A stretch of 64,000 bases of DNA from Anaerolineae bacterium (lineage in GTDB: Bacteria > Desulfobacterota > Desulfobacteria > Desulfobacterales > ETH-SRB1): assembly GCA_035529315.1 (NCBI GenBank), contig DATKWZ010000016.1, forward strand, positions 9,650-73,649, written 5' to 3'. Below the pieces are notes generated by a model. The model ran no database searches. It saw only the letters and a list, made by a program, of their open reading frames with translations, and was not told where the DNA came from. Numbering within the stretch: the first letter of the stretch is position 1; every line of letters begins with the position of its first letter. Below, one piece after another: positions 1 to 50,081 of the stretch. The translations under genes and the position numbers were made by a program.

Positions 1-637
1 ACGCAACCTGCCTGCCCATTGCATCAACGATCAGTACCGGTTCAACCGTATTGAACTGCTCGATTGGGCAATGGCGAAACATCTGCCACTGGCTCCCGAT
101 ATCCTGGGAAAAGCGCACCCGGACGACCCGTGCGAATTTCCGGGAATAGCGGAAGCGCTGCGGACGGGCGGGGTCTTCTACCATGTTCCCGGCGGGGACA
201 AGGCAGCGGTATTGGCAAAAGTGGTCCGGATCATGTCGCTGCCCGCTGAAGTGGACCGGGATTTTCTACTGGAAGTGCTCCTGGCACGCGAGTCGCTGTG
301 TTCCACCGGAATCGGCGACGGGGTGGCCATCCCGCACGTCCGCAATCCGATCGTCATGCATGTTCCCCGACCGATCATGTCGCTGAGCTTCCTGGAACAG
401 CGGGTTGAATTCGACGCCCTCGACGGCCGGCCCGTACATACCCTTTTTACCATTGTCAGTTCCACAATTCACGGCCATCTGCAGTTGCTGTCCCGGCTCT
501 CCTTTGCCATGCGTCAGCCCGATTTCAAGGCGGCGATCGCCCGCAAGGCACCGCGTGAGGAACTTTTGCAACAAGCCGAAGCCATCGACAGAACGGTTGC
601 CGTCCAAAATTTGATGGATAGAGGAAACCTGTCATGA
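1..637 (+). CDS. HTH (excisionase/MerR-like) + PTS EIIA type-2 (PtsN-like) regulatory protein, 5'-partial
   Basis: The frame is open from the window edge. RNLPAHCINDQYRFNRIELLDWA looks like the tail of an HTH, so the ORF-track Met at 71 is internal. It continues into an EIIA-2 fold with the phospho-His signature GIGDGVAIPHVRNP. The stop overlaps the next start (ATGA at 634-637). Confidence 0.75.
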   Translation, partial: RNLPAHCINDQYRFNRIELLDWAMAKHLPLAPDILGKAHPDDPCEFPGIAEALRTGGVFYHVPGGDKAAVLAKVVRIMSLPAEVDRDFLLEVLLARESLCSTGIGDGVAIPHVRNPIVMHVPRPIMSLSFLEQRVEFDALDGRPVHTLFTIVSSTIHGHLQLLSRLSFAMRQPDFKAAIARKAPREELLQQAEAIDRTVAVQNLMDRGNLS

Positions 638-2589
638 CGCCCCTGCTGTTATCTTTTTTTATTTTGCTCGTCGGGGCGATAGCCGCGGCTGTTCTGCGCT
701 GCACCCGGACGCAGTGGATCGGGCCCTGGAGCGCAATAGCCGGTGCGGCTATTGCGGCTTTCGCCGGACTGCGCAGCCTGATCGCCGGAACGACGGTTGA
801 CATCGCGGCTCCTTGGCAGGTGCCAATGGGATCGCTGCACGTCGGCCTCGATCCCCTGTCGGCGCTTTTCGTGTCCTTAATTGCAGTAATCGGCGTGCTG
901 GCGGCAGCTTATGGCCGCGGTTATCTGGCAGATGATCCCGGCAATGGAAAGGTCGCGATGAGCTGGTGCTGGTACAATCTGCTCATAGCCGCCATGCTGC
1001 TGGTGGTGGTGGCCCGGGACGGCTTTCTGTTTCTGCTGGCCTGGGAGGCCATGTCCCTGTCCTCATTTTTTCTGGTCATGTTCGACCATGAAAAGGACGA
1101 GGTGATGCGGGCCGGCTGGACATATCTGGTGGCCGCCCATCTGGGAACGGCATTTTTACTGATCATGTTTCTGTTGCTGGGCGCCGACGACAGCCTGGAT
1201 TTTGCCGCCTTGTCTGCGTCGGGTTTGTTGGCATCGATAGTCTTTGCGATGGCCTTGATCGGTTTCGGAACCAAGGCCGGCTTCGTGCCCCTGCACTTCT
1301 GGCTACCCGAGGCACATCCGGCGGCTCCTTCGCACGTTTCGGCCCTGATGAGCGGCGTCATGATCAAAACCGGCATCTACGGTCTGCTGCGGGTAATGAC
1401 GTTTCTCAAGGCACCCGACGCCTGGTGGGGCTGGGCGCTGATCGTGATCGGAGCGGTGTCCGGTGTTGCCGGCATTCTTTTTGCGCTGGCGCAGCATGAC
1501 TTAAAACGGCTGCTGGCCTATTCCAGTGTCGAACATATGGGAATTATCACAGTGGGCCTGGGGATCGGCATCCTGGGGGACGTTTCCGGCAACCCTGTCG
1601 TGGCGGCGATGGGCTTTTGCGGCGCACTGCTGCATGTGATCAATCACGGCATTTTCAAAAGTCTGCTCTTTCTGGGTGCCGGGTCTGTCCTGCACGCCAC
1701 CGGGACCCGGGCGATTGATCGCCTGGGCGGTCTGATCAAACCCATGCCGGTGACCGGCGCCGCCTTTTTGGTGGGGGCAGCGGCGATTTGCGCCCTGCCA
1801 CCGCTTAGCGGGTTTGTCAGCGAGTTCCTCATTTATTCCGCCGCTTTCAGCAGCGTGGCCGCAGGTACCCAGGTCTGGGGCGGAATCGTTGTCATCGGCA
1901 GTTTGGCCCTTATCGGCGGTCTGGCGGCAGCCTGTTTCACCAAGGCATTAGGAGCAGTCTTTCTGGGAGAACCACGCACCAGCGACGCAGTCGGGGTCCA
2001 TGAAGCGCCGCTGTCCATGTGCTGGCCTATGGTTACGCTGGCGGCCCTGTGCGTCTTCATCGGCCTGACCGCAGCGGAAATGGTCCAGCTGGTGATGCCG
2101 GCGGTGGCCCAACTAACGCCTGCTGCGGTAAATACCGTCCTCCTGAAAAGGCTGCAGGACCTGATGACTCCAATCAGCATAGCAGCACTGGTTCTGATAG
2201 GTTTGACGGCGCTGCTTGCCGGACTGCGCTCGATGCTGCTGCGACGCCGCATGGTCCGCACAGCTGTTACCTGGGACTGCGGCTATGCGGCCCCGACACC
2301 ACGCATGCAATATACCGCCTCTTCATATGCCCAGCCCCTGATCGGAATGTTCCAGACGGTTTTGCGAACGCGCTGCGACCTTAAGAAGCCGCAGGGCCTC
2401 TTCCCCGCCGCTGCCGGCCTGCACAACCAAACACCGGATTTATTTGTCCAGAGGGTTTACGCGCCGGCAATCCGGACAATCGTCAGGCTGGCCGACATTT
2501 TTCGCCGGATCCAGCAGGGACAAACTCACCTGTATATTCTGTATATCCTTGTGACCGTCCTGCTGCTGCTGATCTGGAACCTGTGGTGA
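634..2589 (+). CDS. Hydrogenase-4 component B-like / NuoL-type antiporter-like membrane subunit
   Basis: 651-aa polytopic protein with NuoL/HyfB family motifs WLPEAHPAAPSHVSALMSGVMIKTG and LLAYSSVEHMG. First gene of a tightly packed operon. Confidence 0.85.
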   Translation: MTPLLLSFFILLVGAIAAAVLRCTRTQWIGPWSAIAGAAIAAFAGLRSLIAGTTVDIAAPWQVPMGSLHVGLDPLSALFVSLIAVIGVLAAAYGRGYLADDPGNGKVAMSWCWYNLLIAAMLLVVVARDGFLFLLAWEAMSLSSFFLVMFDHEKDEVMRAGWTYLVAAHLGTAFLLIMFLLLGADDSLDFAALSASGLLASIVFAMALIGFGTKAGFVPLHFWLPEAHPAAPSHVSALMSGVMIKTGIYGLLRVMTFLKAPDAWWGWALIVIGAVSGVAGILFALAQHDLKRLLAYSSVEHMGIITVGLGIGILGDVSGNPVVAAMGFCGALLHVINHGIFKSLLFLGAGSVLHATGTRAIDRLGGLIKPMPVTGAAFLVGAAAICALPPLSGFVSEFLIYSAAFSSVAAGTQVWGGIVVIGSLALIGGLAAACFTKALGAVFLGEPRTSDAVGVHEAPLSMCWPMVTLAALCVFIGLTAAEMVQLVMPAVAQLTPAAVNTVLLKRLQDLMTPISIAALVLIGLTALLAGLRSMLLRRRMVRTAVTWDCGYAAPTPRMQYTASSYAQPLIGMFQTVLRTRCDLKKPQGLFPAAAGLHNQTPDLFVQRVYAPAIRTIVRLADIFRRIQQGQTHLYILYILVTVLLLLIWNLW

Positions 2590-2599
2590 GGACCGAGCC

Positions 2600-3517
2600 A
2601 TGACACATGCCTATGCCCTATTTCATATTTTGCTGGCGTTAACGGCAAGCCCTCTGCTGCTGGCCCTGATCAATCGGGTCAAGGCCTTCTTCGGAGGTCG
2701 AAGCGGCCCGCCGCTGCTGCAGTCCTATTATGACCTGTTCAAGCTGCTTCGCAAGGGAGCGGTATACAGCCGTACCACATCGTGGGTTTTCCGCGCCGGT
2801 CCCGTGGTGGGACTGGCGGCCGCGTTAATAGCACTGCTGCTGGTACCCCTGGGTGATATTCCAGCCCTGGTGGCTTTTCCGGGCGATCTGCTGCTTATGG
2901 CATACACCTTGGGGTTGATGCGTTTTTTTACCGTTATAGCCGCCCTGGATACCGGCTCAGCCTTTGAAGGGATGGGGGCCAGTCGGGAAGTACAGTTTTC
3001 AGCTCTGACGGAAGTGGCGCTGCTGACTGGATTGGCCGCCATCTCCGCTAAAGTTCATGCCGTTTCACTGAGTACACTCAGCAGCCAGGTCTGGGCCGGA
3101 GTGCCGGCCTGGGAAGGCGGTGCCACCGTGCTGCTGGCATCGGGCGCACTGTTGGTGGTTTTGCTGGCTGAAAATGCCCGCATTCCCTTTGATGACCCCA
3201 ATACCCATCTGGAACTGACGATGATCCACGAGGTCATGATACTGGATAACGGCGGTGTGGACCTGGCGCTGATTGAGTATGCATCCGCTATCAAGTTCTG
3301 GGTGCTAAGCGCCCTCCTGGTTTCCATTGCACTGCCTCTGCGGACGACGGTTCCCGTCTTGAATCTGGCACTCGGTCTGGGAGCAATGCTGATTCTTGGG
3401 GTGGTTGTTGGGTGCATCGAATCGATGATGGCCCGCCTGCGACTGGTCCGCGTGCCCCAGTTGATCGTAGCCGCCGGCGTACTTTCCCTTTTGGCCGTCA
3501 TCATGGCGGTACGGTGA
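2600..3517 (+). CDS. HyfC/HycD/NuoH-like membrane subunit
   Basis: 305-aa hydrophobic protein with an acidic loop (AENARIPFDDPNTHLELTMIHE) typical of NuoH/HycD-type subunits. It sits in the expected position in a hyf-like gene order. Confidence 0.8.
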   Translation: MTHAYALFHILLALTASPLLLALINRVKAFFGGRSGPPLLQSYYDLFKLLRKGAVYSRTTSWVFRAGPVVGLAAALIALLLVPLGDIPALVAFPGDLLLMAYTLGLMRFFTVIAALDTGSAFEGMGASREVQFSALTEVALLTGLAAISAKVHAVSLSTLSSQVWAGVPAWEGGATVLLASGALLVVLLAENARIPFDDPNTHLELTMIHEVMILDNGGVDLALIEYASAIKFWVLSALLVSIALPLRTTVPVLNLALGLGAMLILGVVVGCIESMMARLRLVRVPQLIVAAGVLSLLAVIMAVR

Positions 3518-3519
3518 AT

Positions 3520-4167
3520 ATGATGCAAGCTTTAGATGAATTTCTGGTAATTGTGATGATCCTGTTGAATCTCAGGCTGATGGGCGTCAGCCGGCTCGGT
3601 GCCTGCGTGCAGACGGTGGCTATCCAGGCGCTGGTGATCGGCGCCTTGGCGCTCCTGTCGCAAACAGCACCAAGTTTCTGGACGGTGGCCCTTGTGACGT
3701 CAGCCACAGCCATTAAAGCCGGCGTCCTTCCCGCCATGGTCCGCAGGGCCATGCGCGAGACCGGCGTGGTGCGGGAAATCGATCCCTTGGTCGGCTACAC
3801 CCTTTCAGTTCTGATCGGTACCGGCATGTTCGTGCTCAGTCTCCTGGCGACACGGTCGCTGGAGGTGCCATTTGCCGCTGGGGGGGCGCATTGGCTGGTT
3901 TCGGGTACGTTGTTCACGATGCTGACCGGGCTGTTTCTCATCGTAACCCGCCGCAAGGCCATCAACCAGGTATTGGGCTTTGTCACTATGGAAAACGGCA
4001 TCTACCTGTTCGGCGTCGCCTTTGCGATACACGAGCCGTGGCTCGTCCAAGCCGGAGTGCTGCTGGACGTTTTTGCGGCCGTTTTCATCATGGGCATCAT
4101 GATTTGTCATATCAACCGGGAATTTGATCATATTGATACGAACCGGTTATCAAATTTGAAGGATTGA
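3520..4167 (+). CDS. Hydrogenase-4 component E-like (NuoK-like) membrane subunit
   Basis: I place the start at ATG 3520, 3 nt after the upstream stop. The ORF-track start at 3412 would overlap the previous gene. The protein is a small hydrophobic one with RRKAINQVLGFVTMENGIYLFG, which is HyfE-like. Confidence 0.8.
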   Translation: MMQALDEFLVIVMILLNLRLMGVSRLGACVQTVAIQALVIGALALLSQTAPSFWTVALVTSATAIKAGVLPAMVRRAMRETGVVREIDPLVGYTLSVLIGTGMFVLSLLATRSLEVPFAAGGAHWLVSGTLFTMLTGLFLIVTRRKAINQVLGFVTMENGIYLFGVAFAIHEPWLVQAGVLLDVFAAVFIMGIMICHINREFDHIDTNRLSNLKD

Positions 4168-4171
4168 AGTC

Positions 4172-5656
4172 ATGATCTGGGCATTAATTCTGATTCCGGC
4201 AGCCTGCGGCATATTGGCCTTCCCCCTGGCTTCCGACCGACTGAGCCGCACCCTGCTGGTCACGGCCGCACTGGCCCATTTCGCCCTTGTGCTGGCGGCA
4301 TGGCAAATGCCGCTGCCGTTTAACGCAGCAACCGGCTGGCTGACGGTAGACGCGGCATCTCTTTTATTTCTGAGCATCTGCAGCGGACTGTTTCTGGCAG
4401 CCTCCCTGTATGCGATCGACTACCTCGAGCGCTCGCCAAAGGCCCCGATTCGCGATTACCTGGAAGGCTTTCAATTCGGCAATCGCCCCGAACAGATTTT
4501 TATCGGCTGCCTGCTGCTGTTTCTGGCCGCCATGACCACGGTAATCGTTTCCAGCCACATGGGTATCCTCTGGGTGGCGGTGGAAGCCACTACGCTTGCC
4601 AGTGCACCGTTGATCTATTATCACCGGCACCATCGCAGCCTGGAAGCGGCCTGGAAATATCTGCTGATCTGTTCGGTAGGAATCGCGCTGGCACTGCTCG
4701 GCAATTTCTTTCTGGCCGTCGCAACCACCGCCAGACCCGGTCTGGAGCACAGTTTGCTGCTGCCGGAGCTCGTCAAAAACGCCGCCGGTTTTTCACCAAC
4801 CTGGCTCAAGGCCGCATTTATGCTGATGCTGGTGGGCTACGGCACCAAAATGGGCCTGGCCCCAATGCATACCTGGCTACCGGATGCCCACAGCGAATCG
4901 CCATCCTTAGTGTCGGCACTGTTGTCTGGGGCTCTTCTCAACTGCGCTTTTCTGGCGATTCTGCGCATGCATACCGTGCTGGTCGCCGCTGGCCTGGGCG
5001 ATTTCGGACGCGACATGTTGGTTCTCTTCGGCCTGTTTTCCATGGTATGGGCGGCTATACTACTGATTTCCCTGACCGATTATAAACGCATGCTGGCCTA
5101 TTCCAGTGTCGAACATATGGGAATTCTCGCGGTGGGCATCGGTTTGGGCGGAGCAGCCTCCGCCGGAGCCATGCTGCATGTGCTGAACCATTCTTTGACG
5201 AAAGCCGCGCTATTTTTTGTGGCCGGCAATATCCTGGCGGTTTACCGGAGCAAGAATGTCGGAGATGCCCGTGGGCTGCTCGGCATCCTGCCGGTCAGCG
5301 GCGTGCTGTGGCTGGCTGGAATTATAGCCATTACCGGATCGCCTCCCTTTGGATTGTTCACCAGCGAGCTGATGATCCTCAAAGGCGCGCTCGCCGGGAG
5401 CCGCTGGGCCGTAGCCGGCTGTTATCTGACAGCTTTATTTGTAGCCTTTGCCGCCATGGCATGGGCCGGAATGCGGATGGCCTATGGCCTCCCGGATACC
5501 CCACTCATTCATTCGAGGCCGGCTGCCGAATCCATGCTATCCGTGGCTGTTCCGGCGACACTGCTGGCTGTGGTTTTCGTACTGGGGTTGTGGGTGCCCC
5601 CGCCGTTGTGGAAGTTGATCAAGGCCTCTGCCGCGACCCTGGGAGGAGGTTTCTGA
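4172..5656 (+). CDS. Hydrogenase-4 component F-like / NuoN(M)-type antiporter-like subunit
   Basis: 494-aa polytopic protein with WLPDAHSESPSLVSALLSG and MLAYSSVEHMGI motifs. The stop overlaps the next start (ATGA at 5654-5658). Confidence 0.85.
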   Translation: MIWALILIPAACGILAFPLASDRLSRTLLVTAALAHFALVLAAWQMPLPFNAATGWLTVDAASLLFLSICSGLFLAASLYAIDYLERSPKAPIRDYLEGFQFGNRPEQIFIGCLLLFLAAMTTVIVSSHMGILWVAVEATTLASAPLIYYHRHHRSLEAAWKYLLICSVGIALALLGNFFLAVATTARPGLEHSLLLPELVKNAAGFSPTWLKAAFMLMLVGYGTKMGLAPMHTWLPDAHSESPSLVSALLSGALLNCAFLAILRMHTVLVAAGLGDFGRDMLVLFGLFSMVWAAILLISLTDYKRMLAYSSVEHMGILAVGIGLGGAASAGAMLHVLNHSLTKAALFFVAGNILAVYRSKNVGDARGLLGILPVSGVLWLAGIIAITGSPPFGLFTSELMILKGALAGSRWAVAGCYLTALFVAFAAMAWAGMRMAYGLPDTPLIHSRPAAESMLSVAVPATLLAVVFVLGLWVPPPLWKLIKASAATLGGGF

Positions 5657-7149
5657 TGTCCATGAACATGCCCTTTCTGTATAATGGTGAAACCGTCTTG
5701 ACTGCGGCAGTGCCGCTCATCGGCATTGATCGGTTTCGCTGTGAAGTGATCGAGCAAGTTGCCGGAGGCGGCCGCCTTTCGGCGCTCTTCGCAGTACAGC
5801 ATAACGGTCGTTTCAGGCTCTATGCGGTACTGTGCCTGCCGGCGCGCGAACAGGCAGGAATTGTAGCCACCAAAATCGATGCTATATACCCGTCACTGAC
5901 GCCGGACTGCCCATCGGCCCACTGGTTCGAGCGAGAAATCTTCGAGCAGTGGGGGATTCGGCCGCAAGGTCACCCCTGGCTCAAGCCGATCCGCTTCCAG
6001 CCGTCGGCCCGCGGCGCCGGTACGCCGGCGGTGGGCATTACCGATTTTTTCACCATGGCCGGCGAGGAGGTCCACGAGGTTGCGGTTGGGCCGGTACACG
6101 CGGGCATCATCGAACCGGGGCATTTTCGTTTTCAGTGCCACGGTGAAACCGTTTATCACCTGGAAATTTCACTCGGCTACCAGCACCGCGGGATCGAACG
6201 AGCCCTCGTCGGCGGACCCGGCCGGCGCACTATGCATTACATGGAGACCCTTGCCGGCGACAGCACAGTGGGCCATGCCGCAGCTTACTGCGCTATAATG
6301 GAGGCCCTCTGTGCAACAACGGTGCCGCTCGGCGCCGAGGCGATCCGAGCCATTGCCGCCGAATTAGAACGGATGGCTAACCATATCGGGGATATAGGAG
6401 CGATGGCCGGCGATGTTGGTTTCCTGCCCACGCTGAATTATTGCGGTCGAATCCGGGGAGATGTTCTGAATATGACCGCGCTGATCTGCGGCAATCGTTT
6501 CGGCCGGGGGCTGCTGACACCGGGCGGCGTCCGTTTCGGCCTCAGCGCGGACCGTCGCCGCCTTTTGGCAGAACGCCTCGATGCCGTGGAAAAAGATCTC
6601 AACTCTGCCGTGCCGCTGATGTTCAGCGCGCCTTCGGTTTTGTCGCGCATGGAAGGAACAGGGACGCTGACGGCGGATCTGGCACGGCAAATCGGGCTGG
6701 TGGGCGTGGCAGCCCGGGCGTGCGGGCTGCCCTGTGACGCTCGGACCCAGTTGCCCTATTCCCTTTACAGGTTCGACAGCCTGCCTACCGCCACGTACCA
6801 TACGGGTGACTGTTTTGCCAGAGCCTACATCCGCTGGCTGGAACTGAAGCATTCGATCGCGTTTGTCCGGCGGCAACTTGTAGCCCCAGCCGCTGAAAAC
6901 GGCCTGGTTGAGGCGTGCAACTCGCCGGGCCCCGACCGGATGGCTGTCGCGTTTAGCGAAGGTTGGCGGGGGGAAATCTGCCATGTGGCAGCCACGGACG
7001 CCCAGGGGCGTTTCGAGTTCTATAAAGTCATCGACCCCTCATTTCACAACTGGTTCGGCCTGGCCTATGCGCTGCGCGGGCAGGAAATTTCGGATTTTCC
7101 ACTATGCAACAAGAGCTTTAACCTGTCCTATTGCGGACACGATTTATAA
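5656..7149 (+). CDS. Group-4 [NiFe]-hydrogenase large-subunit homolog (NuoC+NuoD / HycE-HyfG-like) without NiFe Cys ligands
   Basis: Start at ATG 5656 (MSMNMPFLYNG); the ORF-track start at 5308 lies inside the upstream gene. GPVHAGIIEPGHFRF and LGYQHRGIE are HycE/HyfG hallmarks. There is no CxxC anywhere: LAGDSTVGH stands where RxCGxCxxxH is expected. Confidence 0.85.
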   Translation: MSMNMPFLYNGETVLTAAVPLIGIDRFRCEVIEQVAGGGRLSALFAVQHNGRFRLYAVLCLPAREQAGIVATKIDAIYPSLTPDCPSAHWFEREIFEQWGIRPQGHPWLKPIRFQPSARGAGTPAVGITDFFTMAGEEVHEVAVGPVHAGIIEPGHFRFQCHGETVYHLEISLGYQHRGIERALVGGPGRRTMHYMETLAGDSTVGHAAAYCAIMEALCATTVPLGAEAIRAIAAELERMANHIGDIGAMAGDVGFLPTLNYCGRIRGDVLNMTALICGNRFGRGLLTPGGVRFGLSADRRRLLAERLDAVEKDLNSAVPLMFSAPSVLSRMEGTGTLTADLARQIGLVGVAARACGLPCDARTQLPYSLYRFDSLPTATYHTGDCFARAYIRWLELKHSIAFVRRQLVAPAAENGLVEACNSPGPDRMAVAFSEGWRGEICHVAATDAQGRFEFYKVIDPSFHNWFGLAYALRGQEISDFPLCNKSFNLSYCGHDL

Positions 7150-7162
7150 AGAAGGCAGAACT

Positions 7163-7942
7163 ATGTTCCATATTTTAAAAGCCAGATGGCAACAGAAACA
7201 CCGGACGATGCGGTATCCCGCCGGCTCCTTGCCGGAAATGCCGGACCGGTTTGCCGGGCGACCGGTTTTCTGCGGTGAATGCCTAAAAGGATGCCGTTCC
7301 TGCCGGGATGCCTGCCCGGTCGAAGCCGTCCGGCTCGAAGGCGAGCGCTTAACGCTGGACCTGGGGCGCTGCATCTTCTGCCGAGCCTGCGCAGAGGCCT
7401 GCTCCTGCGGAGCGCTTTCGTTCAGCCCAAACCCTCAGTTGGCGGCCGCACAACGGGAGGACCTGATCCTTTCAGCGGATTCACAAGCCCGTATCGAGGC
7501 CATGTCCGAACGAGCCCGCAAATTTTTTGGCCGTTCCTTAAAGCTCAGGCAGGTTTCGGCCGGTGGGTGCAATGCCTGTGAAGCGGATATCAACGTGCTG
7601 GGAACACCGGCCTGGGACATGGGCCGTTTCGGTATCCAGTTTGTTGCCTCGCCTCGGCACGCGGACGGCCTGCTGATAACCGGCCCTGTGACGGACAACA
7701 TGCGTCTGGCCCTCGAAAAAACCTATGCGGCCGTGCCTGAGCCCCGTATCGTCATCGCCTGCGGTGCCTGCGCAATCAGTGGCGGAATATATGCCGGCCA
7801 TCCCGAAGCGTCCGACGGCGCAGCTTCGGTGCTGCCCGTCGATCTTTATATCCCCGGCTGCCCGCCGCATCCGCTGACAACCCTCGATGCACTGCTGCGT
7901 TTTATCGGCCGACCGGTACCCTGGTATCCAGACAGTTTATGA
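7163..7942 (+). CDS. Fused 2x[4Fe-4S] ferredoxin (HycF/NuoI-like) + hydrogenase small subunit (HycG/NuoB-like)
   Basis: Start at ATG 7163 (MFHILKARW). The N-terminal half carries CGECLKGCRSCRDACP and CIFCRACAEACSC. The C-terminal half carries the NuoB/HycG cluster motifs GGCNACE, GACAISGG and PGCPP. Confidence 0.8.
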   Translation: MFHILKARWQQKHRTMRYPAGSLPEMPDRFAGRPVFCGECLKGCRSCRDACPVEAVRLEGERLTLDLGRCIFCRACAEACSCGALSFSPNPQLAAAQREDLILSADSQARIEAMSERARKFFGRSLKLRQVSAGGCNACEADINVLGTPAWDMGRFGIQFVASPRHADGLLITGPVTDNMRLALEKTYAAVPEPRIVIACGACAISGGIYAGHPEASDGAASVLPVDLYIPGCPPHPLTTLDALLRFIGRPVPWYPDSL

Positions 7943-8297
7943 TGCGACACGTTTTGGCTAAGCCGGTTCATGAAGATCAAAATGCTACCTCTGAAATAAA
8001 GAATAAAGAGCACAGTTAAATGGAAAGTTTAATGGAATATGCCCGGCATAATGCCTCCGCTCTATATTCCTCCCAATTTCGATTCCTCCTGATTATGTTA
8101 AACATAATTTAAATAACATAAAAATATAAAAAACGATAATGTTTTTAGCCCTTTGAAAAAAATCCTGACAGGATAACAGGCCTGCCCTGGTGCAACCAGC
8201 AATAACACCGGACGCAAAGATTAAGGGGTTTTTTGTTTTAAAGAATAAATGAATAAAAAAGTTGACAAACTGTAGATTTAAGGTTGGAATAAATTAT

Positions 8298-9272: not shown

Positions 9273-12200
9273 ATGAACAAAAGAAAATCTGAAATCAACT
9301 TCAAAGAGATGTTCCCCCTCCTGAATAGCAACGCCCCCCAAGATGAAAAAACAGCAGAAGAACTGAGTTCATCTTTTTTTCAGGCCTTTGAGGAGCAATG
9401 GAAAAGGGCAAACGCCAAACTAAAGCGGAAGATGATCCTTTTCGCGGGAGGCTTGCCGGTTGAAAACGGATTGCGTCCTGTCTTGCTCGGGCTAAAAGAC
9501 TTTGTTGGGGATGTAAGGAAAGAGGCGCAAACGGCCATTGAACGGCTTTTCAAACAAACGGTCTTTGGGGGGGATACAGGTTTGAGCCTTTTGCCTGATG
9601 TTGTAAAAAGGTCAGCGTACTTTGCGTTCATTATATACAAAGAGATGAAGGCCAGCACCATCAATCTCGAGTTGGTGGCTTTCTTGTTTCAAACGCTGTT
9701 GAAAATGGGCGGAAGGGGGTCTTTTCTCAGTTGGAAATTCTTCAACCAGGGCATGGTCCCTCACAATATGCTTGTTGGAACGATCAAGAAGTTCCCCGAA
9801 AAACTACGGTTGATTTTCGTCTTTCAATATACGCTGGATAATATTTCCGTTCGCCGAAATCATAAGGCGTTGCCAAGACTCCTTTTAAACAATATCAATG
9901 ATCGAAACACGGTTATTGATATTTTAGCAGATCTTTTCGACCAGGGAGTTTTCCTGGATGCTGCTTTTGAGGATTTGTGCCAAAGACTTAAAATCGGCAA
10001 AACCGTAACACAAACAGAATTACAGGCCGACAATCAGGAAACAAAGGTCAAAGGGTTGAAGGTAATAGGGTACCTGGAAGAACTGCCCGGTTATTATTCC
10101 TGCCTGCCGCTGCTTTCTTCGGACGAGCACAAAAGTGTTCGCGTTGAGTGCCTGAAAATGCTCGCCAGGGCGAACGCAAAGAAAGATCAGAAAATTATCC
10201 AGGCTGTTTATAAGTTGTTGGATGACAAGGATCAGGACGTGGCGCTCCATGCCCTTAAGTCCCTTGTTTCATTGAAAGCAATCGGCCTTTCGAAGGCTGC
10301 GCCCCTCCTCTTTGAAAAATATCCTTCCGAGAGGTCTTATCTTTGCGATTGCCTGAGCAAGTTGGAATTTCCTGAACTCAAAGCCGTTTTAGATGCCTTG
10401 CCACCTGATCAAAGCATTGAGTCAAAGGCGACTATTTCCCGCAAGATTGTTAAAAACAACCCTGACAAACTGATCTTCTTTTTGAATCAGTATACAAAAA
10501 ACTCGAATGATAAAATTCAAAACAAGGCATTAAAACTCCTTGCCACGATTGATTCAATAAAGAAAAAAGAGCTTGACGAAGCATCGGAAGACAACACTCG
10601 GGTCAGCTTCCCGTTAGGCAAGGTCAAGAAGGGGTTTTTTGAGAGGATAACAGGAGGATGGCAGCGAAAGGCTCTAAAACAGCTTTTAAATCGCGAGCCT
10701 GTCAAAGACGCTGACTTTCAAGGAGAGGTCTTTTCAAATGTCAATCTTAAAGGTGTTAATCTTCAAAACGTTAATTTTGACCGGGCCTCATTTTCCAATG
10801 TGAACCTTTCTTATGCGAATCTTCAGTCTGTAACGTTCAAAGGGGCTCATTTTGAAAACGTCAGCATAGAAAACTCCATGCTTGATTCTGTATCATTTGA
10901 AAGCGCTGTCTTAAAAGGGGTAAGCGCGGCAAGAACCCAGCTTAGGTCCTGCAATTTAGGCAATTCGTGGATATATGGCTCGTCTTTTGATTCTGCTGAC
11001 TTGACAGGTTCGTATTTTGGCAATGCAAAGATAACAAAAACCGATTTTTCCGGATCAAATCTTACCGAAACCTACTTTGTCGGCGCCAGTCTTTCACGGG
11101 TTGCTTTCAACTATGCCATTCTGGATCTGTCCGATTTTTCACTGGTCAATGCAAAGATGTGTGACTTTTTAGGTGTTGATTTTACGGCCGTAACCAGTGT
11201 CCTTGCTGATTTAAATGCTCGTTCAGTCTTGTTTGAGGATATAAAGATTCCTGCTTTGTTTTTTGAAGATGATCCTGACGGGTCTATCGGTTTTAATCTT
11301 CTCATCATTAGCCAGGAAATAGAAAGACTCCGCGAACGATTCCTTGAATTCAATCGCAGGAGAACAGAGCTCGCACTGGACACCTTTTCCCCTGAGGGCG
11401 GCGATCTGTTTGAACTGATACCCTTTGTGGTTGATTCAAGTTTGGCTTTGCTGCCTGTTGAGAATCCGACCCAAAAAGCGCCGGCAGGAATATTCGGATA
11501 CCACCCTAATCCCAGGACCCTGCGGCTCGCAAAGAAATACTTAATTGTAGATGATTCCAGAATAAGTCTTGATAAAAAGGCTAACATAGAGGGGCTGTTT
11601 ACTATCGGCAGCACAGGAACCATTGCCCAGTCCGTTGACTCTGATATAGACTATTGGGTCTGTGTAGAAAAAGACGAACTCGGAGATGAAGGCTGCGAAC
11701 TGCTCCAGGCAAAACTTCAGGCGATTGAAGAATGGGCATTCAAAGTATTTCACGTTGAAATCCATTTTTTTCTGGTCGACCTTCCCAGCGTACGCGAGAA
11801 TAGTTTCGGTGGAAGTGATCACGAGAGTTCCGGGTCAGCGCAAGGAAAGATCCTGAAAGAAGAGTTCTATAGAACCATGCTCTTTGTGGCAGGCAAGCTC
11901 CCCTTGTGGTGCGCTACCCCTCAATGGCTTAACGACAACCACCATGAGTACCTTGTTGAATTGGCGCCGCGGTTATATAAAGATTATGTTGACATGGGGA
12001 CCATCTCGTCCATTCCAAAAGGAGAGTACTTTGGAGCGTCAATATGGCAGATTTTTAAGAGCCTCAAAAGCCCCTACAAATCGGTTATAAAGATGTCACT
12101 TCTGGACAAATATATTCAGGAGGAAGGGCGTAGCGTACTGTTATGCGACCGGCTCAAGTCGGGCTGGTCACTTGGCAGGTCAGACTTGAGGTCTCTTGAT

Positions 12201-13217
12201 CCTTATGTGTTGCTCTTTGAAGAAGTCCTGGAATATTGTCAACGAACAGAGCAAAAGGATCCGGAGTCTTTGCTGAAAATTTGTTTTTTTCTGAAACTCG
12301 GTATCCAGTCTATCTCCGCCCTGGATAATTTAGTCATAAGGGTGCGGAAGAAAGTGGTCCAGGGCTACATTGACGCCTGGGGCTGGGATGAGAAGCGTGT
12401 TCAGGATTTAGGGCGATTTAAGGAATGGGACTTTGACAAGATATTTCAACTAAGCTCTAAAATCAATCATTACATGATAGAAACTTACAAGAGATCAAGT
12501 CGTATTCTGAAGGATACAGAAGATCGAAACACAATAATCACTCAGCGGGACCTGACGATTCTGGGGCGTAAGATGTTCGTTCAATTTTCCAGGCAGCCTC
12601 ACAAGGTGGAAAAGCTTCCCCTTGTAGCGAGCGGCAAGTCTTTATTTCAGCGGCTGAAACTGCAATACTCCCAACCACACGGGGAGAACGCAACCTGGAA
12701 CTTATACCACCCAAAGACAACAACGGAGAAAAAAGGAAATAATGACCAATTATTGAAAAAAACGGCACGGATAGAAGAGATTGCAATATGGCTGGTTCAT
12801 AATGGGCTTTATTCGTCCACTACTTCGATAGAACTTATGCCAAACCCAACTCCAATTTCGATCCAGGACTTTCTTGACCTTCTTAAAAACCTGCTCCGGG
12901 TTTTCCCGTCTGCGGAAGCCGACCCGATTGCTCCCGAAGCCCTTCTGAAAAATGCTCAACCACGCAAACTCCTTATAGCGGTTAATTTTAACTTAGATCG
13001 AAATTTGAAAAGAATCCATGAATATACAGTATTCTATATGACCAGTTGGGGAGAGGTGTTTTGCAGGTTTTTTCGTGACAAACAAGGGGATGCTTCCCTG
13101 AAAGACGTCCTGAAAAAGGTAGAGAAACAACTTGAGCTTAAAGTTTCTTCCAGTCGGGTATCCTTTTTCATACCGGAAGAAGCCCGCAAAAGCTTCAACC
13201 GTGGAATCATTCTTTAA
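9273..13217 (+). CDS. HEAT-repeat / pentapeptide-repeat / class-I (CyaA-type) adenylate cyclase fusion protein, 1314 aa
   Basis: N-terminal HEAT-like repeats (DEHKSVRVECLKMLA, LLDDKDQDVALHALKSL). Thirty in-phase pentapeptide repeats lie at nt 10737-11186. The C-terminal 625 aa aligns by eye with E. coli CyaA: GSTGTIAQSVDSDIDYWVC vs GSTSSVGQSCSSDLDIWVC, LKEEFYRTMLFVAGK vs LLDEFYRTAVRLAGK, and EYFGASIWQIFKSLKSPYKSV vs [21 protein letters not shown]. Confidence 0.85.
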   Translation: MNKRKSEINFKEMFPLLNSNAPQDEKTAEELSSSFFQAFEEQWKRANAKLKRKMILFAGGLPVENGLRPVLLGLKDFVGDVRKEAQTAIERLFKQTVFGGDTGLSLLPDVVKRSAYFAFIIYKEMKASTINLELVAFLFQTLLKMGGRGSFLSWKFFNQGMVPHNMLVGTIKKFPEKLRLIFVFQYTLDNISVRRNHKALPRLLLNNINDRNTVIDILADLFDQGVFLDAAFEDLCQRLKIGKTVTQTELQADNQETKVKGLKVIGYLEELPGYYSCLPLLSSDEHKSVRVECLKMLARANAKKDQKIIQAVYKLLDDKDQDVALHALKSLVSLKAIGLSKAAPLLFEKYPSERSYLCDCLSKLEFPELKAVLDALPPDQSIESKATISRKIVKNNPDKLIFFLNQYTKNSNDKIQNKALKLLATIDSIKKKELDEASEDNTRVSFPLGKVKKGFFERITGGWQRKALKQLLNREPVKDADFQGEVFSNVNLKGVNLQNVNFDRASFSNVNLSYANLQSVTFKGAHFENVSIENSMLDSVSFESAVLKGVSAARTQLRSCNLGNSWIYGSSFDSADLTGSYFGNAKITKTDFSGSNLTETYFVGASLSRVAFNYAILDLSDFSLVNAKMCDFLGVDFTAVTSVLADLNARSVLFEDIKIPALFFEDDPDGSIGFNLLIISQEIERLRERFLEFNRRRTELALDTFSPEGGDLFELIPFVVDSSLALLPVENPTQKAPAGIFGYHPNPRTLRLAKKYLIVDDSRISLDKKANIEGLFTIGSTGTIAQSVDSDIDYWVCVEKDELGDEGCELLQAKLQAIEEWAFKVFHVEIHFFLVDLPSVRENSFGGSDHESSGSAQGKILKEEFYRTMLFVAGKLPLWCATPQWLNDNHHEYLVELAPRLYKDYVDMGTISSIPKGEYFGASIWQIFKSLKSPYKSVIKMSLLDKYIQEEGRSVLLCDRLKSGWSLGRSDLRSLDPYVLLFEEVLEYCQRTEQKDPESLLKICFFLKLGIQSISALDNLVIRVRKKVVQGYIDAWGWDEKRVQDLGRFKEWDFDKIFQLSSKINHYMIETYKRSSRILKDTEDRNTIITQRDLTILGRKMFVQFSRQPHKVEKLPLVASGKSLFQRLKLQYSQPHGENATWNLYHPKTTTEKKGNNDQLLKKTARIEEIAIWLVHNGLYSSTTSIELMPNPTPISIQDFLDLLKNLLRVFPSAEADPIAPEALLKNAQPRKLLIAVNFNLDRNLKRIHEYTVFYMTSWGEVFCRFFRDKQGDASLKDVLKKVEKQLELKVSSSRVSFFIPEEARKSFNRGIIL

Positions 13218-49200: not shown

Positions 49201-49293
49201 CCAACATTTGCCATATCAATGGGGGGCTTCACTAATGAAGAGATAATAGCCCAGATAAGGGCGTTTGGTGGAAATCAGGCAATAAAATCATGA
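46252..49293 (+). CDS. Tandem HdrA-like flavoprotein (two heterodisulfide-reductase-A modules, 1013 aa)
   Basis: Two FAD dinucleotide folds ([16 protein letters not shown] and [16 protein letters not shown]), two QCVGSRD motifs, and a C-terminal 2x[4Fe-4S] region ([24 protein letters not shown]). Confidence 0.9.
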
Positions 49294-50078
49294 AAACACA
49301 AGTTACCCTTACCACTCTTTACAAGATGAAGAAAAAAGGCGAAAAAATTGTTGCCCTTACCGCCTATGATTATCCGTTTGCAAAGATAGTTAATGATTCA
49401 GGGGTCCATATGATCCTTGTAGGGGATTCAGTAGGAATGGTGGTTCAGGGAAAATCAAGCACCCTGCCGGTTACAATGGATGAAATGATATACCATACCC
49501 GCATTGTGTCAAAAGCCGCCGGAAACGCGATGATTGTCGGTGATATGCCGTTTATGTCTTACCAGACAAGCATAAAAGATGCGATTACCAATGCAGGACG
49601 TTTTCTTAAAGAAGCAGGCGCTGCTGCAATCAAGCTGGAGGGAGGAAGAGCGGTCAGTGAAACAATAAAAGCAATTTCAGGAGCTGGAATTCCGGTACAG
49701 GCCCATATAGGCATTACACCGCAATCTGTTCACCAGATGGGAGGCTACAGAGTTCAGCGCAATGAAGAACAGCTCATGGTAGATGCCCTTGAGATAGAAT
49801 CCGCCGGAGCCTTTTCCGTTGTTTTAGAAGGTATCCCATCCGAAATTTCAGAAAAGATAACTAAAGCGCTTGCAATACCGACAATAGGAATAGGAGCGGG
49901 TCCACATTGCGACGGGCAGATACTTGTGCTGCACGACCTCCTGGGGTTAAATGACAGGCATGTGCCAAAGTTCGTAAAACAATACGCTAATCTGCTTGAT
50001 GATGCGAAAGCCGGAATAAAACAGTATATAGAGGAAGTGCAGGCAGGTAAATTTCCTGCCAAAAAACATTGTTATTGA
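49290..50078 (+). CDS. panB: 3-methyl-2-oxobutanoate hydroxymethyltransferase
   Basis: [26 protein letters not shown] and [14 protein letters not shown] motifs. The start overlaps the hdrA-like stop (ATGA). Confidence 0.95.
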
Positions 50079-50081
50079 AAT

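What the first reader, a model, noticed from the sequence alone, without database searches (positions are those of the whole stretch)
5656..7149. Hydrogenase large-subunit homolog with no NiFe-binding cysteine pairs (Ehr-type)
- **Expectation:** Group-4 [NiFe] hydrogenase large subunits bind the metal centre through an N-terminal RxCGxCxxxH motif and a C-terminal DPCxxC motif.
- **Family membership:** The family scaffold is obvious here (GPVHAGIIEPGHFRF, LGYQHRGIE).
- **N-terminal site:** The expected site reads LAGDSTVGH (nt 6250-6276; Cys replaced by Ala and by Ser).
- **C-terminus:** It ends FPLCNKSFNLSYCGHDL (nt 7105-7146), and there is no CxxC anywhere in the protein.
- **Small subunit:** It keeps its NuoB-type cluster ligands.
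- **Interpretation:** This matches the poorly understood Ehr (energy-converting hydrogenase-related) complexes, proposed as intermediates between membrane hydrogenases and complex I. Their substrate is unknown.
- **Missing partners:** No hyp maturation genes or endopeptidase gene are adjacent.
Basis: partly seen in the sequence, partly recalled or inferred. Interest (0 to 1): 0.62.

Follow-up and report, generated by a model that had tools for sequence, protein, structure and literature searches.

The report
Nickel-free hydrogenase-like membrane complex (Ehr)
This gene encodes the "large subunit" of a membrane complex that is built like an energy-converting hydrogenase but has lost the nickel-iron site; it belongs to the widespread, already described Ehr family, whose substrate is still unknown.

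Summary
Window 5656-7149 (+) encodes a 497-aa fused NuoC/NuoD-type protein. All four [NiFe]-ligand cysteines of group-4 hydrogenases are replaced (Ala200, Ser203, Ser491, Gly494), and there is no CxxC anywhere.

This is not decay. The replacement residues are nearly invariant in 120 homologues of 59-97% identity: T-L-A-G-D-[TS]-T-[IV]-G-H and the C-terminus FPLCNKSFNLSYCGHDL. dN/dS is 0.13.

The gene sits in a tight operon:
- an HTH_17/PTS-EIIA regulator;
- ehrA (NuoL/HyfB-like), ehrB (NuoH-like), ehrC (HyfE-like) and ehrD (HyfF-like);
- ehrL, the gene in question;
- ehrS, a HyfH-like 2x[4Fe-4S] domain fused to a NuoB-like domain.

This is the published ehrABCDLS layout (Geobacter, Methylacidiphilum). 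The same gene order recurs in the 80 genome loci kept from 596 confirmed matches. No conserved partner enzyme and no hyp or endopeptidase genes are present.

All Fe-S ligands and the ion-channel residues of both antiporter-like subunits are kept. The best reading is therefore a redox-driven ion pump fed by ferredoxin, with a non-proton acceptor, possibly menaquinone. That last part is inferred.

Here the 8.1-kb cassette is a recent horizontal acquisition: 59% GC in a ~42% GC genome that carries Wood-Ljungdahl pathway genes.

Verdict: a new member of a known but functionally unsolved family.

The parts
1..637 (+). 3' part (about 212 of 236 codons) of the operon's first gene, an HTH_17 + PTS_EIIA_2 regulator-like protein. 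Its start lies 73 nt before the window. It overlaps ehrA by 4 nt.
   Evidence: Pfam PTS_EIIA_2 at 7.9e-21. Full-length gene call with HTH_17 + EIIA on the source contig. Present in 25 of 36 related loci with enough upstream sequence. The AIPH histidine is conserved in 33 of 34. dN/dS 0.17.
634..2589 (+). ehrA: NuoL/HyfB-like antiporter-type membrane subunit (651 aa).
   Evidence: NCBIfam hydrogenase-4 subunit B, 631 bits. Keeps TM5 Glu138, TM7 Lys214, TM8 His334/His338/Lys342 and TM12 Glu397.
2600..3517 (+). ehrB: NuoH/HyfC-like membrane subunit (305 aa).
   Evidence: Pfam NADHdh at 2.2e-29. Conserved position in all related loci.
3520..4167 (+). ehrC: HyfE-like membrane subunit (215 aa).
   Evidence: NCBIfam hydrogenase-4 membrane subunit (HyfE) at 1.7e-25. 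Pfam Oxidored_q2.
4172..5656 (+). ehrD: HyfF/NuoM-N-like antiporter-type membrane subunit (494 aa).
   Evidence: NCBIfam hydrogenase-4 subunit F at 5.6e-100. Keeps Glu138, Lys226, His336/His340/Lys344 and Glu399.
5656..7149 (+). ehrL: fused NuoC + NuoD/[NiFe]-large-subunit homologue without the metal-binding cysteines (497 aa).
   Evidence: Pfam Complex1_30kDa + Complex1_49kDa. Best solved relative is HycE 7z0s_E at 2.7e-40. Foldseek TM 0.76 to 7z0s_E. Ligand columns read A/S/S/G.
6250..6276 (+). Remodelled N-terminal metal-site motif L-A-G-D-S-T-V-G-H. It corresponds to VCGICGFAH of HycE.
   Evidence: Alignments. Gly201-Asp202 and His207 are invariant in 121 sequences.
7096..7146 (+). Family-specific C-terminus FPLCNKSFNLSYCGHDL. 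It replaces ...DPCxxCxxR and ends at the position of the mature hydrogenase C-terminus.
   Evidence: Each residue is 94-100% conserved in 120 homologues. Shared in variant form with Rhizobium HyqG, FPLCNKSFNCSYSGHDL.
7163..7942 (+). ehrS: fusion of a HyfH/NuoI-like 2x[4Fe-4S] domain (residues ~1-110) with a NuoB/HyfI-like small subunit (259 aa).
   Evidence: Pfam Oxidored_q6 + Fer4. Cx3Cx2Cx3CP and Cx2Cx2Cx3C motifs, plus the CxxC / C / PGCPP-Cys ligands aligned with HycG, HyfI and NuoB.
1..7948 (.). Horizontally acquired 8.1-kb cassette, 57-63% GC. Its left edge lies about 170 nt before the window.
   Evidence: GC profile. GC3 is 0.65-0.71 against 0.37-0.52 in host genes. 83% DNA identity over 8122 nt to a contig with different flanks. 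The same junctions are seen in 7 contigs.

Best explanation
The gene encodes EhrL, the catalytic-position subunit of a six-subunit Ehr complex (EhrA-B-C-D-L-S). This is a Hyf-type energy-converting hydrogenase scaffold that has lost the [NiFe] centre but kept everything else.

**Proposed mechanism**
1. A low-potential soluble carrier docks on the HyfH-like domain of EhrS. Ferredoxin is the likely carrier. In this host it could come from the CODH/acetyl-CoA synthase encoded 30 kb away.
2. Electrons pass along three [4Fe-4S] clusters to the remodelled pocket at the EhrL/EhrS/EhrB interface.
3. There a non-proton acceptor is reduced. My first choice is membrane menaquinone.
4. That step drives H+ or Na+ translocation through EhrA and EhrD. 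The reverse reaction, gradient-driven ferredoxin reduction, is equally possible.
5. An operon-encoded HTH/PTS-EIIA protein with a conserved phosphorylatable His probably ties expression to PTS (PEP/pyruvate) status.

**What is shown:** family identity, loss of the Ni-Fe ligands, intact cluster ligands, intact ion-channel residues, purifying selection, and the self-contained operon.

**What is inferred:** the donor (about 0.5), the acceptor (quinone about 0.3), the direction, and the regulator's role.

The overall confidence of 0.6 applies to the general statement: an Ehr-type, Ni-free, redox-driven ion-translocating complex. The individual inferred steps carry the lower figures given above.
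For: **Loss of the metal site**
- The four ligand cysteines are replaced, and the replacement is conserved.
- No Hyp or HycI homologues are found within 68 kb.

**Electron path intact**
- The proximal-cluster ligands and two ferredoxin-type motifs are present in EhrS.
- The hydrogenase-type EPGHFRF loop with Glu153 is retained.

**Ion-translocation residues intact**
- Both antiporter-like subunits keep the TM5 Glu, TM7 Lys, TM8 HxxxHxxxK and TM12 Glu, as HyfB and HyfF do.

**Selection and operon structure**
- dN/dS is 0.13-0.22 for the six genes that could be compared; ehrD was not, because it is split in the relative.
- The gene order is fixed in 80 loci from many phyla.
- No flanking gene family is shared by more than 10 of 80 loci. 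The donor and acceptor must therefore be generic cell components.

**Context and literature**
- The host carries a complete Wood-Ljungdahl/CODH cluster, so it makes reduced ferredoxin.
- Ehr subunits are detected as proteins in Geobacter sulfurreducens (PMC7894505).
- The regulator is conserved, often overlaps ehrA by 4 nt, and keeps its His in 33 of 34 sequences.
Against: - No biochemical datum exists for any Ehr complex in the literature I could search. No relative closer than HycE has a solved structure.
- Quinone as acceptor: the complex I quinone-binding Tyr (Nqo4 Tyr87) and His (His38) align with Gly201 and Ile152.
- Ehr complexes are also reported in Margulisbacteria that lack quinone biosynthesis (PMC6349859).
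- Ferredoxin as donor rests only on analogy with Ech, Mbh and FHL-type modules and on host context.
- The cassette is foreign to this host and lies 30 kb from the CODH genes.
- The AlphaFold monomer is unreliable exactly at the pocket segments, residues 110-175 and 475-497.
Confidence: 0.6

Rival explanations
1. It is still a hydrogenase. H2 is made or consumed at a non-canonical, cysteine-poor site. This has been claimed from genetics for the related Hyq 'endo-hydrogenase' of Azorhizobium caulinodans.
For: - Deleting hyqRBCEFGI changes H2 evolution 10-15-fold in vivo. HyqG also lacks both CxxC motifs (PMC3357923).
- Rhizobium HyqG shares the GDSTV and FPLCNKSF..SY.GHDL signatures with the window protein.
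- The hydrogenase-type Glu in EPGHFRF is kept.
Against: - All four metal ligands are gone, and no Hyp or endopeptidase genes are nearby.
- The Hyq papers state that no cell-free assay exists, and that a Ni-Fe site is 'uncertain, if not unlikely' (PMC3357923).
- The H2 phenotypes could arise indirectly, through nitrogenase or the redox balance.
- Hyq is only 38% identical and has a different small subunit.
Confidence: 0.07
2. The pocket has been rebuilt into a new centre. In this clade Asp202, Cys484, Cys493 and His495 are invariant or nearly so. They may bind another metal, or Cys484/Cys493 may form a redox-active dithiol next to the proximal cluster. That dithiol would reduce a disulfide, polysulfide or similar soluble acceptor, in the manner of Mbs or ferredoxin:thioredoxin reductase.
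For: - Compared with the nearest true [NiFe] relatives (RVCGACSFSH / FPLVNKSFNLCYSCTDR), the clade lost four Cys and gained Asp202, Cys484, Cys493 and His495.
- Asp202 is invariant in 121 aligned sequences, and Cys484 and Cys493 in all 120 that cover the C-terminus. His495 is in 119 of 120.
- Seven Cys are invariant in EhrL overall.
Against: - Other cysteine-less subclades read FPL[IV]NKSFNLSYSGNDL, with neither Cys nor His. Hyq places its second Cys elsewhere.
- The set is therefore not a property of the whole superfamily.
- The spatial proximity of the four residues could not be tested, because model confidence there is below 50.
- The family also occurs in aerobes such as Methylacidiphilum and Nitrospira (PMC6688271, PMC10284858).
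Confidence: 0.18
3. It is a decaying or non-functional hydrogenase remnant, or the product of a sequencing or assembly artefact.
For: The catalytic cysteines are lost. The operon has a composition foreign to its contig.
Against: - All seven reading frames are intact.
- dN/dS is 0.13-0.22.
- The substituted motifs are near-invariant across phyla.
- The same junctions occur in 7 contigs.
- Ehr proteins are detected by proteomics in Geobacter (PMC7894505).
Confidence: 0.02
4. The redox module is only regulatory or structural, and the complex works mainly as an Mrp-like cation/proton antiporter for pH or salt homeostasis.
For: - A role in pH homeostasis was suggested for Methylacidiphilum ehrABCDLS (PMC6688271).
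- Both antiporter-like subunits are intact.
- PTS-EIIA(Ntr)-type proteins regulate cation transport in E. coli. This rests on my own knowledge and was not tested here.
Against: - All 12 cluster-ligand cysteines of EhrS are kept in the window protein, and also in Variovorax EhrS at 42% large-subunit identity.
- The EhrL pocket residues are the most conserved part of the protein.
- A structural relic would not be held this tightly.
Confidence: 0.08

Closest known systems
Ehr complex, ehrABCDLS (Geobacter sulfurreducens GSU0739-0745; Methylacidiphilum; 'energy-converting hydrogenase-related' complexes of Marreiros et al. 2013)
   Same: - Same six structural genes in the same order.
- The large subunit lacks the CxxC pairs, and the small subunit keeps a proximal cluster.
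- No maturation genes.
- Geobacteraceae relatives are 50-54% identical (PMC7894505, PMC6688271, PMC10284858).
   Different: - Geobacteraceae carry two ehrA copies, this operon one.
- The window's cassette is a foreign high-GC block in a low-GC genome.
- The upstream HTH/EIIA gene is not mentioned in the passages on Ehr that I read.
Hyq 'endo-hydrogenase', hyqRBCEFGI (Azorhizobium caulinodans; Rhizobium johnstonii pRL11)
   Same: - Same B-C-E-F-G-I order.
- HyqG is a roughly 504-aa NuoC::NuoD fusion without CxxC.
- It shares GDSTV and the FPLCNKSF..SY.GHDL C-terminus (PMC3357923).
   Different: - Only 38% identity, in a separate clade.
- HyqI is a 177-aa NuoB-only protein without the two-cluster domain.
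- The second C-terminal Cys sits at a different position.
- The regulator is a 98-aa HTH protein without EIIA.
E. coli hydrogenase-4 / formate hydrogenlyase (HyfBCEFGHI; HycE, PDB 7z0s)
   Same: - Best sequence and fold match: HycE at 2.7e-40, TM 0.76.
- Same subunit types and order, the same ion-channel residues, and the same EPGHFR loop.
   Different: - HycE and HyfG have RVCGICGFAH and DPCYSCTDR plus a 32-residue C-terminal extension. They also need HycI and Hyp.
- Here the ligands are absent and there is no extension, no HyfD, and no HyfA or FDH partner.
- HyfH and HyfI are fused into one protein.
Cysteine-bearing environmental relatives (P0215, P0255, P0260). They probably correspond to [NiFe] group 4f, which published trees place next to Ehr (PMC10284858).
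   Same: About 36-38% identity. NuoC-fused large subunit. Shared FPLxNKSFNL C-terminal context with no extension.
   Different: They keep RxCGxCxxxH and three or four ligand cysteines, and form a clade with HycE and HyfG in the distance tree.
Respiratory complex I / NDH-1 (NuoCD, NuoB, NuoH, NuoL/M/N)
   Same: Homologous core module. Fused NuoCD as in E. coli. No Ni-Fe site. Antiporter-like subunits with the same charged residues.
   Different: - The quinone-binding Tyr and His are missing; they align with Gly201 and Ile152.
- The proximal cluster has the hydrogenase-type CxxC, not the NuoB tandem CC.
- No NuoA, NuoEFG or third antiporter-like subunit.
Mbs/Mbx sulfane-sulfur reductase of Pyrococcus furiosus (PDB 6u8y)
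   Same: A group-4-derived complex that no longer makes H2 and reduces another acceptor with ferredoxin.
   Different: A much weaker match: 6u8y_L at 2.3e-13 against HycE at 2.7e-40. No Mrp-type multi-subunit module is present in this operon.

Membership tests
Ehr (ehrABCDLS) | Large subunit homologous to group-4 [NiFe] large subunit / NuoD | tested here: met
   Pfam Complex1_49kDa + Complex1_30kDa. HycE at 2.7e-40. Foldseek TM 0.76.
Ehr (ehrABCDLS) | Both CxxC metal-binding pairs absent | tested here: met
   The ligand columns read A, S, S, G. There is no CxxC in the protein.
Ehr (ehrABCDLS) | Operon of NuoL-like, NuoH-like, HyfE-like and NuoM/N-like subunits, then large and small subunit, in that order | tested here: met
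   Names as given in PMC7894505 and PMC6688271.
Ehr (ehrABCDLS) | Small subunit retains the proximal [4Fe-4S] ligands | tested here: met
   Alignment with HycG, HyfI and NuoB.
Ehr (ehrABCDLS) | Groups with the founding Geobacter sulfurreducens EhrL (within GSU0739-0745) | tested here: inconclusive
   Geobacteraceae loci (Geomonas limicola L037, Geobacter sp. L043) are 53-54% identical and have the seven-gene layout. The G. sulfurreducens sequence itself could not be fetched.
[NiFe] hydrogenase group 4 (4a/4f) | N-terminal RxCGxCxxxH motif | tested here: not met
   The motif reads TLAGDSTVGH.
[NiFe] hydrogenase group 4 (4a/4f) | C-terminal DPCxxCxx[RH] motif | tested here: not met
   The motif reads NLSYCGHDL followed by the stop codon.
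[NiFe] hydrogenase group 4 (4a/4f) | Hyp maturation proteins and endopeptidase available | tested here: inconclusive
   None found in the 64-kb window plus 4.3 kb upstream. The rest of the genome is not available.
Complex I / NDH-1 (NuoD) | Quinone head-group ligands (T. thermophilus Nqo4 Tyr87 and His38) | tested here: not met
   They align with Gly201 and Ile152 (alignment to 2fug_4; for E. coli NuoCD).
Complex I / NDH-1 (NuoD) | Full membrane set, including NuoA and three antiporter-like subunits | tested here: not met
   Only EhrA and EhrD are antiporter-like. There is no NuoA homologue in the operon.
Hyq endo-hydrogenase | NuoB-only small subunit (HyqI, about 177 aa) and short HTH regulator HyqR | tested here: not met
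   EhrS is 259 aa with an added 2x[4Fe-4S] domain. The regulator is HTH_17 + EIIA.
Hyq endo-hydrogenase | Cysteine-less NuoC::D large subunit with a FPLCNKSF...GHDL end | tested here: met
   Three-way alignment. Identity is only 38%, however.
Mbs/Mbx | Mrp-type multi-subunit membrane module and MbsL-like large subunit | tested here: not met
   6u8y_L scores only 2.3e-13. No Mrp small subunits are in the operon.

The most novel reading that the evidence does not exclude
In this Ehr clade the emptied Ni-Fe pocket may have been refitted as a new active centre, rather than left as a passive cavity. The centre would use Asp202, Cys484, Cys493 and His495, helped by Lys486 and Tyr492. It would sit next to the proximal [4Fe-4S] cluster and either bind a different metal or act as a cluster-coupled dithiol. 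This would be a previously undescribed chemistry on the complex I/hydrogenase scaffold. It might also underlie the H2-related phenotypes reported for Hyq.
Probability: 0.15. Interest if true: 0.85.

Novelty: new member of a known kind. Interest (0 to 1): 0.36.

Why it matters
**Why the family matters**
- Ehr complexes are found in hundreds of species from more than a dozen phyla.
- They sit on the evolutionary line between membrane hydrogenases and complex I.
- They have had no assigned substrate since Geobacter genome analyses first described them (cited in the papers I read as Coppi et al. 2004 and Coppi 2005).

**What this example adds**
- It shows that the whole unit, regulator plus six structural genes in 8.1 kb, moves between genomes as one cassette.
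- It carries no partner enzyme.
- It has landed in a ferredoxin-centred Wood-Ljungdahl organism.

**Consequences**
- The family looks suitable for heterologous expression.
- The donor is probably a generic one such as ferredoxin.
- The sharply conserved replacement residues give concrete targets for mutagenesis.

The finding does not itself answer what Ehr does.

Tried and rejected
**Explanations rejected**
- Shifted ligand cysteines. HMMER and MAFFT alignments to HycE and HyfG are gap-free at both sites, and the C-termini coincide. Cys493 is one residue off and has no partner.
- Pseudogene or sequencing error. Rejected by conservation and by dN/dS.
- Assembly chimera as the cause of the GC jump. 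The same junctions occur in 7 contigs. The block aligns end to end, from about 100 nt upstream of the regulator to 6 nt past the ehrS stop, with a relative that has different flanks.
- A conserved partner such as formate dehydrogenase, as proposed for Margulisbacteria (PMC6349859). A census of 80 loci found no flanking family in more than 10 of them.

**Approaches that did not help**
- AlphaFold monomer, to inspect the pocket. The overall fold is good (pTM 0.81), but residues 110-175 and 475-497 have pLDDT below 50. The tool also returns no coordinates, so proximity of the candidate residues could not be assessed.
- Literature searches for a functional study of Ehr. Nothing beyond proteomics and genome annotation was found. 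One search was swamped by 'electronic health records'. Marreiros et al. 2013 is not held.
- Direct comparison with G. sulfurreducens EhrL.

Full report
**1. The observation**

Window 5656-7149 (+) is an uninterrupted 497-codon reading frame. Its start overlaps the stop of the preceding gene by one base.
- The gene call on the source contig gives the same limits.
- Homologues are 492-524 aa, apart from one 383-aa partial sequence and one 480-aa sequence.
- The longer GTG ORF from 5308 listed is therefore not the gene.

- LAGDSTVGH is residues 199-207 (nt 6250-6276).
- The C-terminal FPLCNKSFNLSYCGHDL is residues 481-497 (nt 7096-7146, not 7105-7146).
- The protein has 15 cysteines and no CxxC.

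Pfam sees a NuoC-like domain (Complex1_30kDa) followed by a NuoD/[NiFe]-large-subunit domain (Complex1_49kDa). The best solved relative by sequence is HycE of the E. coli formate hydrogenlyase (7z0s_E, E = 2.7e-40). It is ahead of MbhL (3.4e-30), Thermus Nqo4 (5.9e-29) and MbsL (2.3e-13).

In that alignment, and in a MAFFT alignment with E. coli HycE, HyfG and NuoCD:
- HycE RVCGICGFAH lies over TLAGDSTVGH.
- HycE LDPCYSCTDR lies over FNLSYCGHDL.
- The four metal ligands are therefore Ala200, Ser203, Ser491 and Gly494.
- The chain stops exactly where the mature, processed HycE stops. HycE and HyfG carry a further 32 residues.

**2. It is not chance or decay**

A search of the 5.8-billion-protein collection returned 8000 hits at the cap. 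The best 120 are 59-97% identical. Among them:
- every one has [TL]-[LA]-[AS]-G-D-[TS]-[TS]-x-G-H;
- every residue of the C-terminal 17-mer is 94-100% conserved;
- none extends past the final Leu.

In a 24-sequence alignment spanning several phyla, seven cysteines are invariant: 161, 263, 278, 386, 442, 484 and 493. Mean column identity is 70%. Against an 83%-identical relative, dN/dS is 0.13 for ehrL and 0.17-0.22 for five of the other six genes; ehrD could not be compared because it is split in that contig.

**3. The operon**

Seven genes are packed with gaps of -4 to +13 nt.

| Gene | Window coordinates | What it is |
|---|---|---|
| regulator | ..-637 | HTH_17 + PTS_EIIA_2 protein, 236 aa; the window cuts off its first 24 codons |
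| ehrA | 634-2589 | HyfB/NuoL-like |
| ehrB | 2600-3517 | NuoH-like |
| ehrC | 3520-4167 | HyfE-like |
| ehrD | 4172-5656 | HyfF-like |
| ehrL | 5656-7149 | the gene in question |
| ehrS | 7163-7942 | two-domain small subunit |

EhrS is a fusion.
- Residues ~1-110 align with HycF, HyfH and NuoI. They carry Cx3Cx2Cx3CP and Cx2Cx2Cx3C motifs.
- The rest aligns with HycG, HyfI and NuoB. It keeps the CxxC, the GAC-Cys and the PGCPP-Cys of the proximal cluster.

Both antiporter-like subunits keep the residues that define the ion path in complex I and Hyf. These are the TM5 Glu, TM7 Lys, TM8 HxxxHxxxK and TM12 Glu.

tblastn with E. coli HypA-F, HycI, HycH and HyfJ finds nothing in the window or the 4.3 kb upstream.

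**4. Relatives and context elsewhere**

The best 80 loci come from:
- Planctomycetota and Verrucomicrobiota;
- Geobacteraceae and other Desulfuromonadales;
- Geothrix and Thermoanaerobaculia;
- Spirochaetota, Elusimicrobiota, Cloacimonadota, Hydrogenedentota and Lentisphaerota;
- Chlamydiota, Gemmatimonadota, Myxococcales and a few Alphaproteobacteria.

In every locus with enough sequence the order A(-A)-B-C-D-L-S is the same. Geobacteraceae and some others have two ehrA copies.

The HTH/EIIA gene lies directly upstream in 25 of 36 loci that have at least 900 nt of upstream sequence. It often overlaps ehrA by 4 nt. Its AIPH histidine is conserved in 33 of 34 sequences.

Beyond that, no gene family is shared by the flanks of more than 10 of 80 loci. 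The unit is self-contained. It has no dedicated dehydrogenase, no formate dehydrogenase and no maturation genes.

**5. Where it sits among known families**

I ran an exhaustive HMMER search of 1.84 billion cluster representatives (5852 hits). I then read the ligand columns of the best full-length ones.

| Type | N-terminal site | C-terminal site | Notes |
|---|---|---|---|
| Window type | A[ST]SG at the ligand columns | Cys484 and Cys493 present | the window protein's own clade |
| Hyq type | RTSGDSTVAY | FPLCNKSFNCSYSGHDL | alphaproteobacterial diazotrophs |
| Third type | RISGDSSFAH | FPL[IV]NKSFNLSYSGNDL | neither C-terminal Cys |
| True [NiFe] (P0215, P0255, P0260) | RVCGACSFSH | FPLVNKSFNLCYSCTDR | three proteins at ~36-38% identity |

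- Nearly all of the sequences read are cysteine-less. The three true [NiFe] proteins group with HycE and HyfG in a neighbour-joining tree rooted on NuoCD.
- The window protein lies deep in the cysteine-less clade.
- The shared FPLxNKSFNL context says that the family derives from Hyf/4f-like hydrogenases by replacement of the ligands.
- The complex I quinone ligands, Nqo4 Tyr87 and His38, align with Gly201 and Ile152. The protein therefore does not look like a half-way stage to complex I.
- The tree is a distance sketch and should not be over-read.

**6. What the literature says**

- The layout is the published ehrABCDLS. Geobacter sulfurreducens GSU0739-0745 has EhrA-1 (NuoL-like), EhrC (HyfE-like), EhrL and EhrS.
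- All its subunits are detected by proteomics and are more abundant on formate than in the hydrogen-containing conditions. Its 'physiological role ... has never been investigated' (PMC7894505, PMC8691401).
- Methylacidiphilum carries ehrABCDLS (PMC6688271).
- Metagenomic papers define Ehr as group-4-like, close to 4f, lacking the CxxC motifs, and of unknown function (PMC10284858, PMC6349859, PMC7304191).
- Ehr and Hyq have been proposed as intermediates towards complex I (PMC4758237, citing Marreiros et al. 2013, which I could not read).

The related hyqRBCEFGI of Azorhizobium has been studied genetically.
- Deletion changes in-vivo H2 evolution. The authors call it an endo-hydrogenase and infer an H2:quinone oxidoreductase.
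- They also note the missing CxxC pairs, that a Ni-Fe site is 'uncertain, if not unlikely', and that no cell-free assay exists (PMC3357923).

I fetched the Rhizobium johnstonii pRL11 copy.
- HyqG is 38% identical to the window protein and shares the GDSTV and FPLCNKSF...GHDL signatures.
- HyqI is a 177-aa NuoB-only protein, and HyqR is a 98-aa HTH protein.
- Hyq is therefore a sister subfamily, not the same thing.

No relative closer than HycE has a solved structure.

**7. Mechanism**

*Shown:*
- a complete three-cluster electron path;
- a retained hydrogenase-type EPGHFRF loop with Glu153;
- intact ion-translocation residues;
- strong purifying selection;
- no Ni-Fe ligands;
- no dedicated partner.

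*Inferred:*
- The donor or acceptor at the distal end is a generic soluble low-potential carrier, most simply ferredoxin, as for Ech, Mbh, Mbs and FHL-type modules.
- The other substrate binds the remodelled pocket at the EhrL/EhrS/EhrB junction.
- Electron transfer is coupled to H+/Na+ movement and may run in either direction.

Menaquinone is my first guess for the pocket substrate (about 0.3). In its favour are the NuoH-like subunit, an N2-like cluster, and many quinone-containing hosts. Against it are the missing Tyr/His pair and the report of Ehr in quinone-less Margulisbacteria (PMC6349859).

One alternative deserves attention. This clade gained Asp202, Cys484, Cys493 and His495 exactly where it lost the four thiolates. 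That could mean a new metal site or a cluster-adjacent dithiol. The other cysteine-less subclades lack these residues, which argues against a universal role.

The AlphaFold monomer could not help. It has pTM 0.81, but its two low-confidence stretches, 110-175 and 475-497, are just the pocket-forming ones.

**8. Local peculiarity: a transferred cassette**

- The operon is 57-63% GC with GC3 of 0.65-0.71. The surrounding genes are 37-48% GC with GC3 of 0.37-0.52.
- In 55 other genomes the operon differs from its flanks by -0.01 to +0.07 in all but three, so the +0.17 here is exceptional.
- The block aligns at 83% DNA identity over 8122 nt with a contig from another sample that has ~57% GC and different flanks. 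The alignment runs from about 100 nt upstream of the regulator to 6 nt after the ehrS stop.
- The same junctions are seen in seven contigs. This is a recent horizontal acquisition, not a chimera.
- Relatives of the superfamily also sit on 207 plasmid records, 75 of them conjugative.
- Two good sigma-70-like sites lie in the AT-rich DNA upstream, at L001 3989-4017 and 4050-4078. The second lies about 95 nt before the start of the aligned block.

**9. The host**

The rest of the window shows a complete Wood-Ljungdahl cluster at 38-60 kb. It contains RACo, Fhs, FolD, CooS-type CODH, a 1013-aa HdrA-like protein, MvhD, a ferredoxin-like protein, MetV, MetF, AcsD, AcsB, AcsC and AcsE. The recipient is thus an anaerobe whose central metabolism produces or needs reduced ferredoxin. 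That fits a ferredoxin-linked role for the acquired complex, but it is only circumstantial.

**10. Verdict**

- The protein is a new member of a known, widespread and functionally unsolved family.
- A specialist would not be surprised by it.
- The useful additions are the sharply defined replacement motifs, the fused small subunit, the conserved PTS-EIIA regulator, and the evidence that the unit travels as a self-sufficient cassette.

Noticed in passing
window 38034-60071 (+): A complete Wood-Ljungdahl gene cluster: RACo, formate-THF ligase, FolD, CooS-type CODH, a 1013-aa HdrA-like protein, MvhD, a 2x[4Fe-4S] protein, MetV, MetF, AcsD, AcsB, AcsC and AcsE. It marks the host as an anaerobe with ferredoxin-centred metabolism.
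   Followed up: partly
window 49290-50960 (+): Ketopantoate hydroxymethyltransferase (PanB) and a DUF2520/Rossmann protein sit between the HdrA-like gene and mvhD, inside the Wood-Ljungdahl cluster. This is an odd insertion into an otherwise coherent Hdr-MvhD-MetVF set.
   Followed up: no
window 9273-13217 (+): A 1314-aa protein that combines HEAT and pentapeptide repeats with a class-I adenylate cyclase domain. It lies directly downstream of the foreign cassette.
   Followed up: no
window 1-7948; L001 4173-12293: There is a sharp GC step at both ends of the ehr cassette, 0.59 against about 0.40. The left edge lies about 100 nt upstream of the regulator gene and the right edge 6 nt after the ehrS stop. 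I did not look for repeats, integrase or tRNA at the edges.
   Followed up: partly
L090 8518-10001: In the closest long relative (83% identity) ehrD is called as two ORFs of 217 and 276 aa. This is a possible frameshift or sequencing error in that contig.
   Followed up: no
L038 13257-19929; L058 2-9081; L083 14625-19452: Some genomes and a Variovorax plasmid carry a second, divergent Ehr-type cluster in tandem with the first. In L038 and L058 the second large subunits are also cysteine-less but belong to other subclades (FPVCNKSFNASYSGHDL and FPVVNKSFNLSYSGTDR). In L083 the second cluster is cut off before its large subunit.
   Followed up: partly
L001 1272-3002: A YcaO-domain protein fused to TPR repeats lies upstream of the cassette, in host DNA.
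   Followed up: no
window 5986-6180 and 7078-7149 (EhrL residues 110-175 and 475-497): The two most conserved segments of EhrL are the ones AlphaFold predicts with the least confidence as a monomer. This is consistent with their being ordered only against EhrS and EhrB.
   Followed up: no
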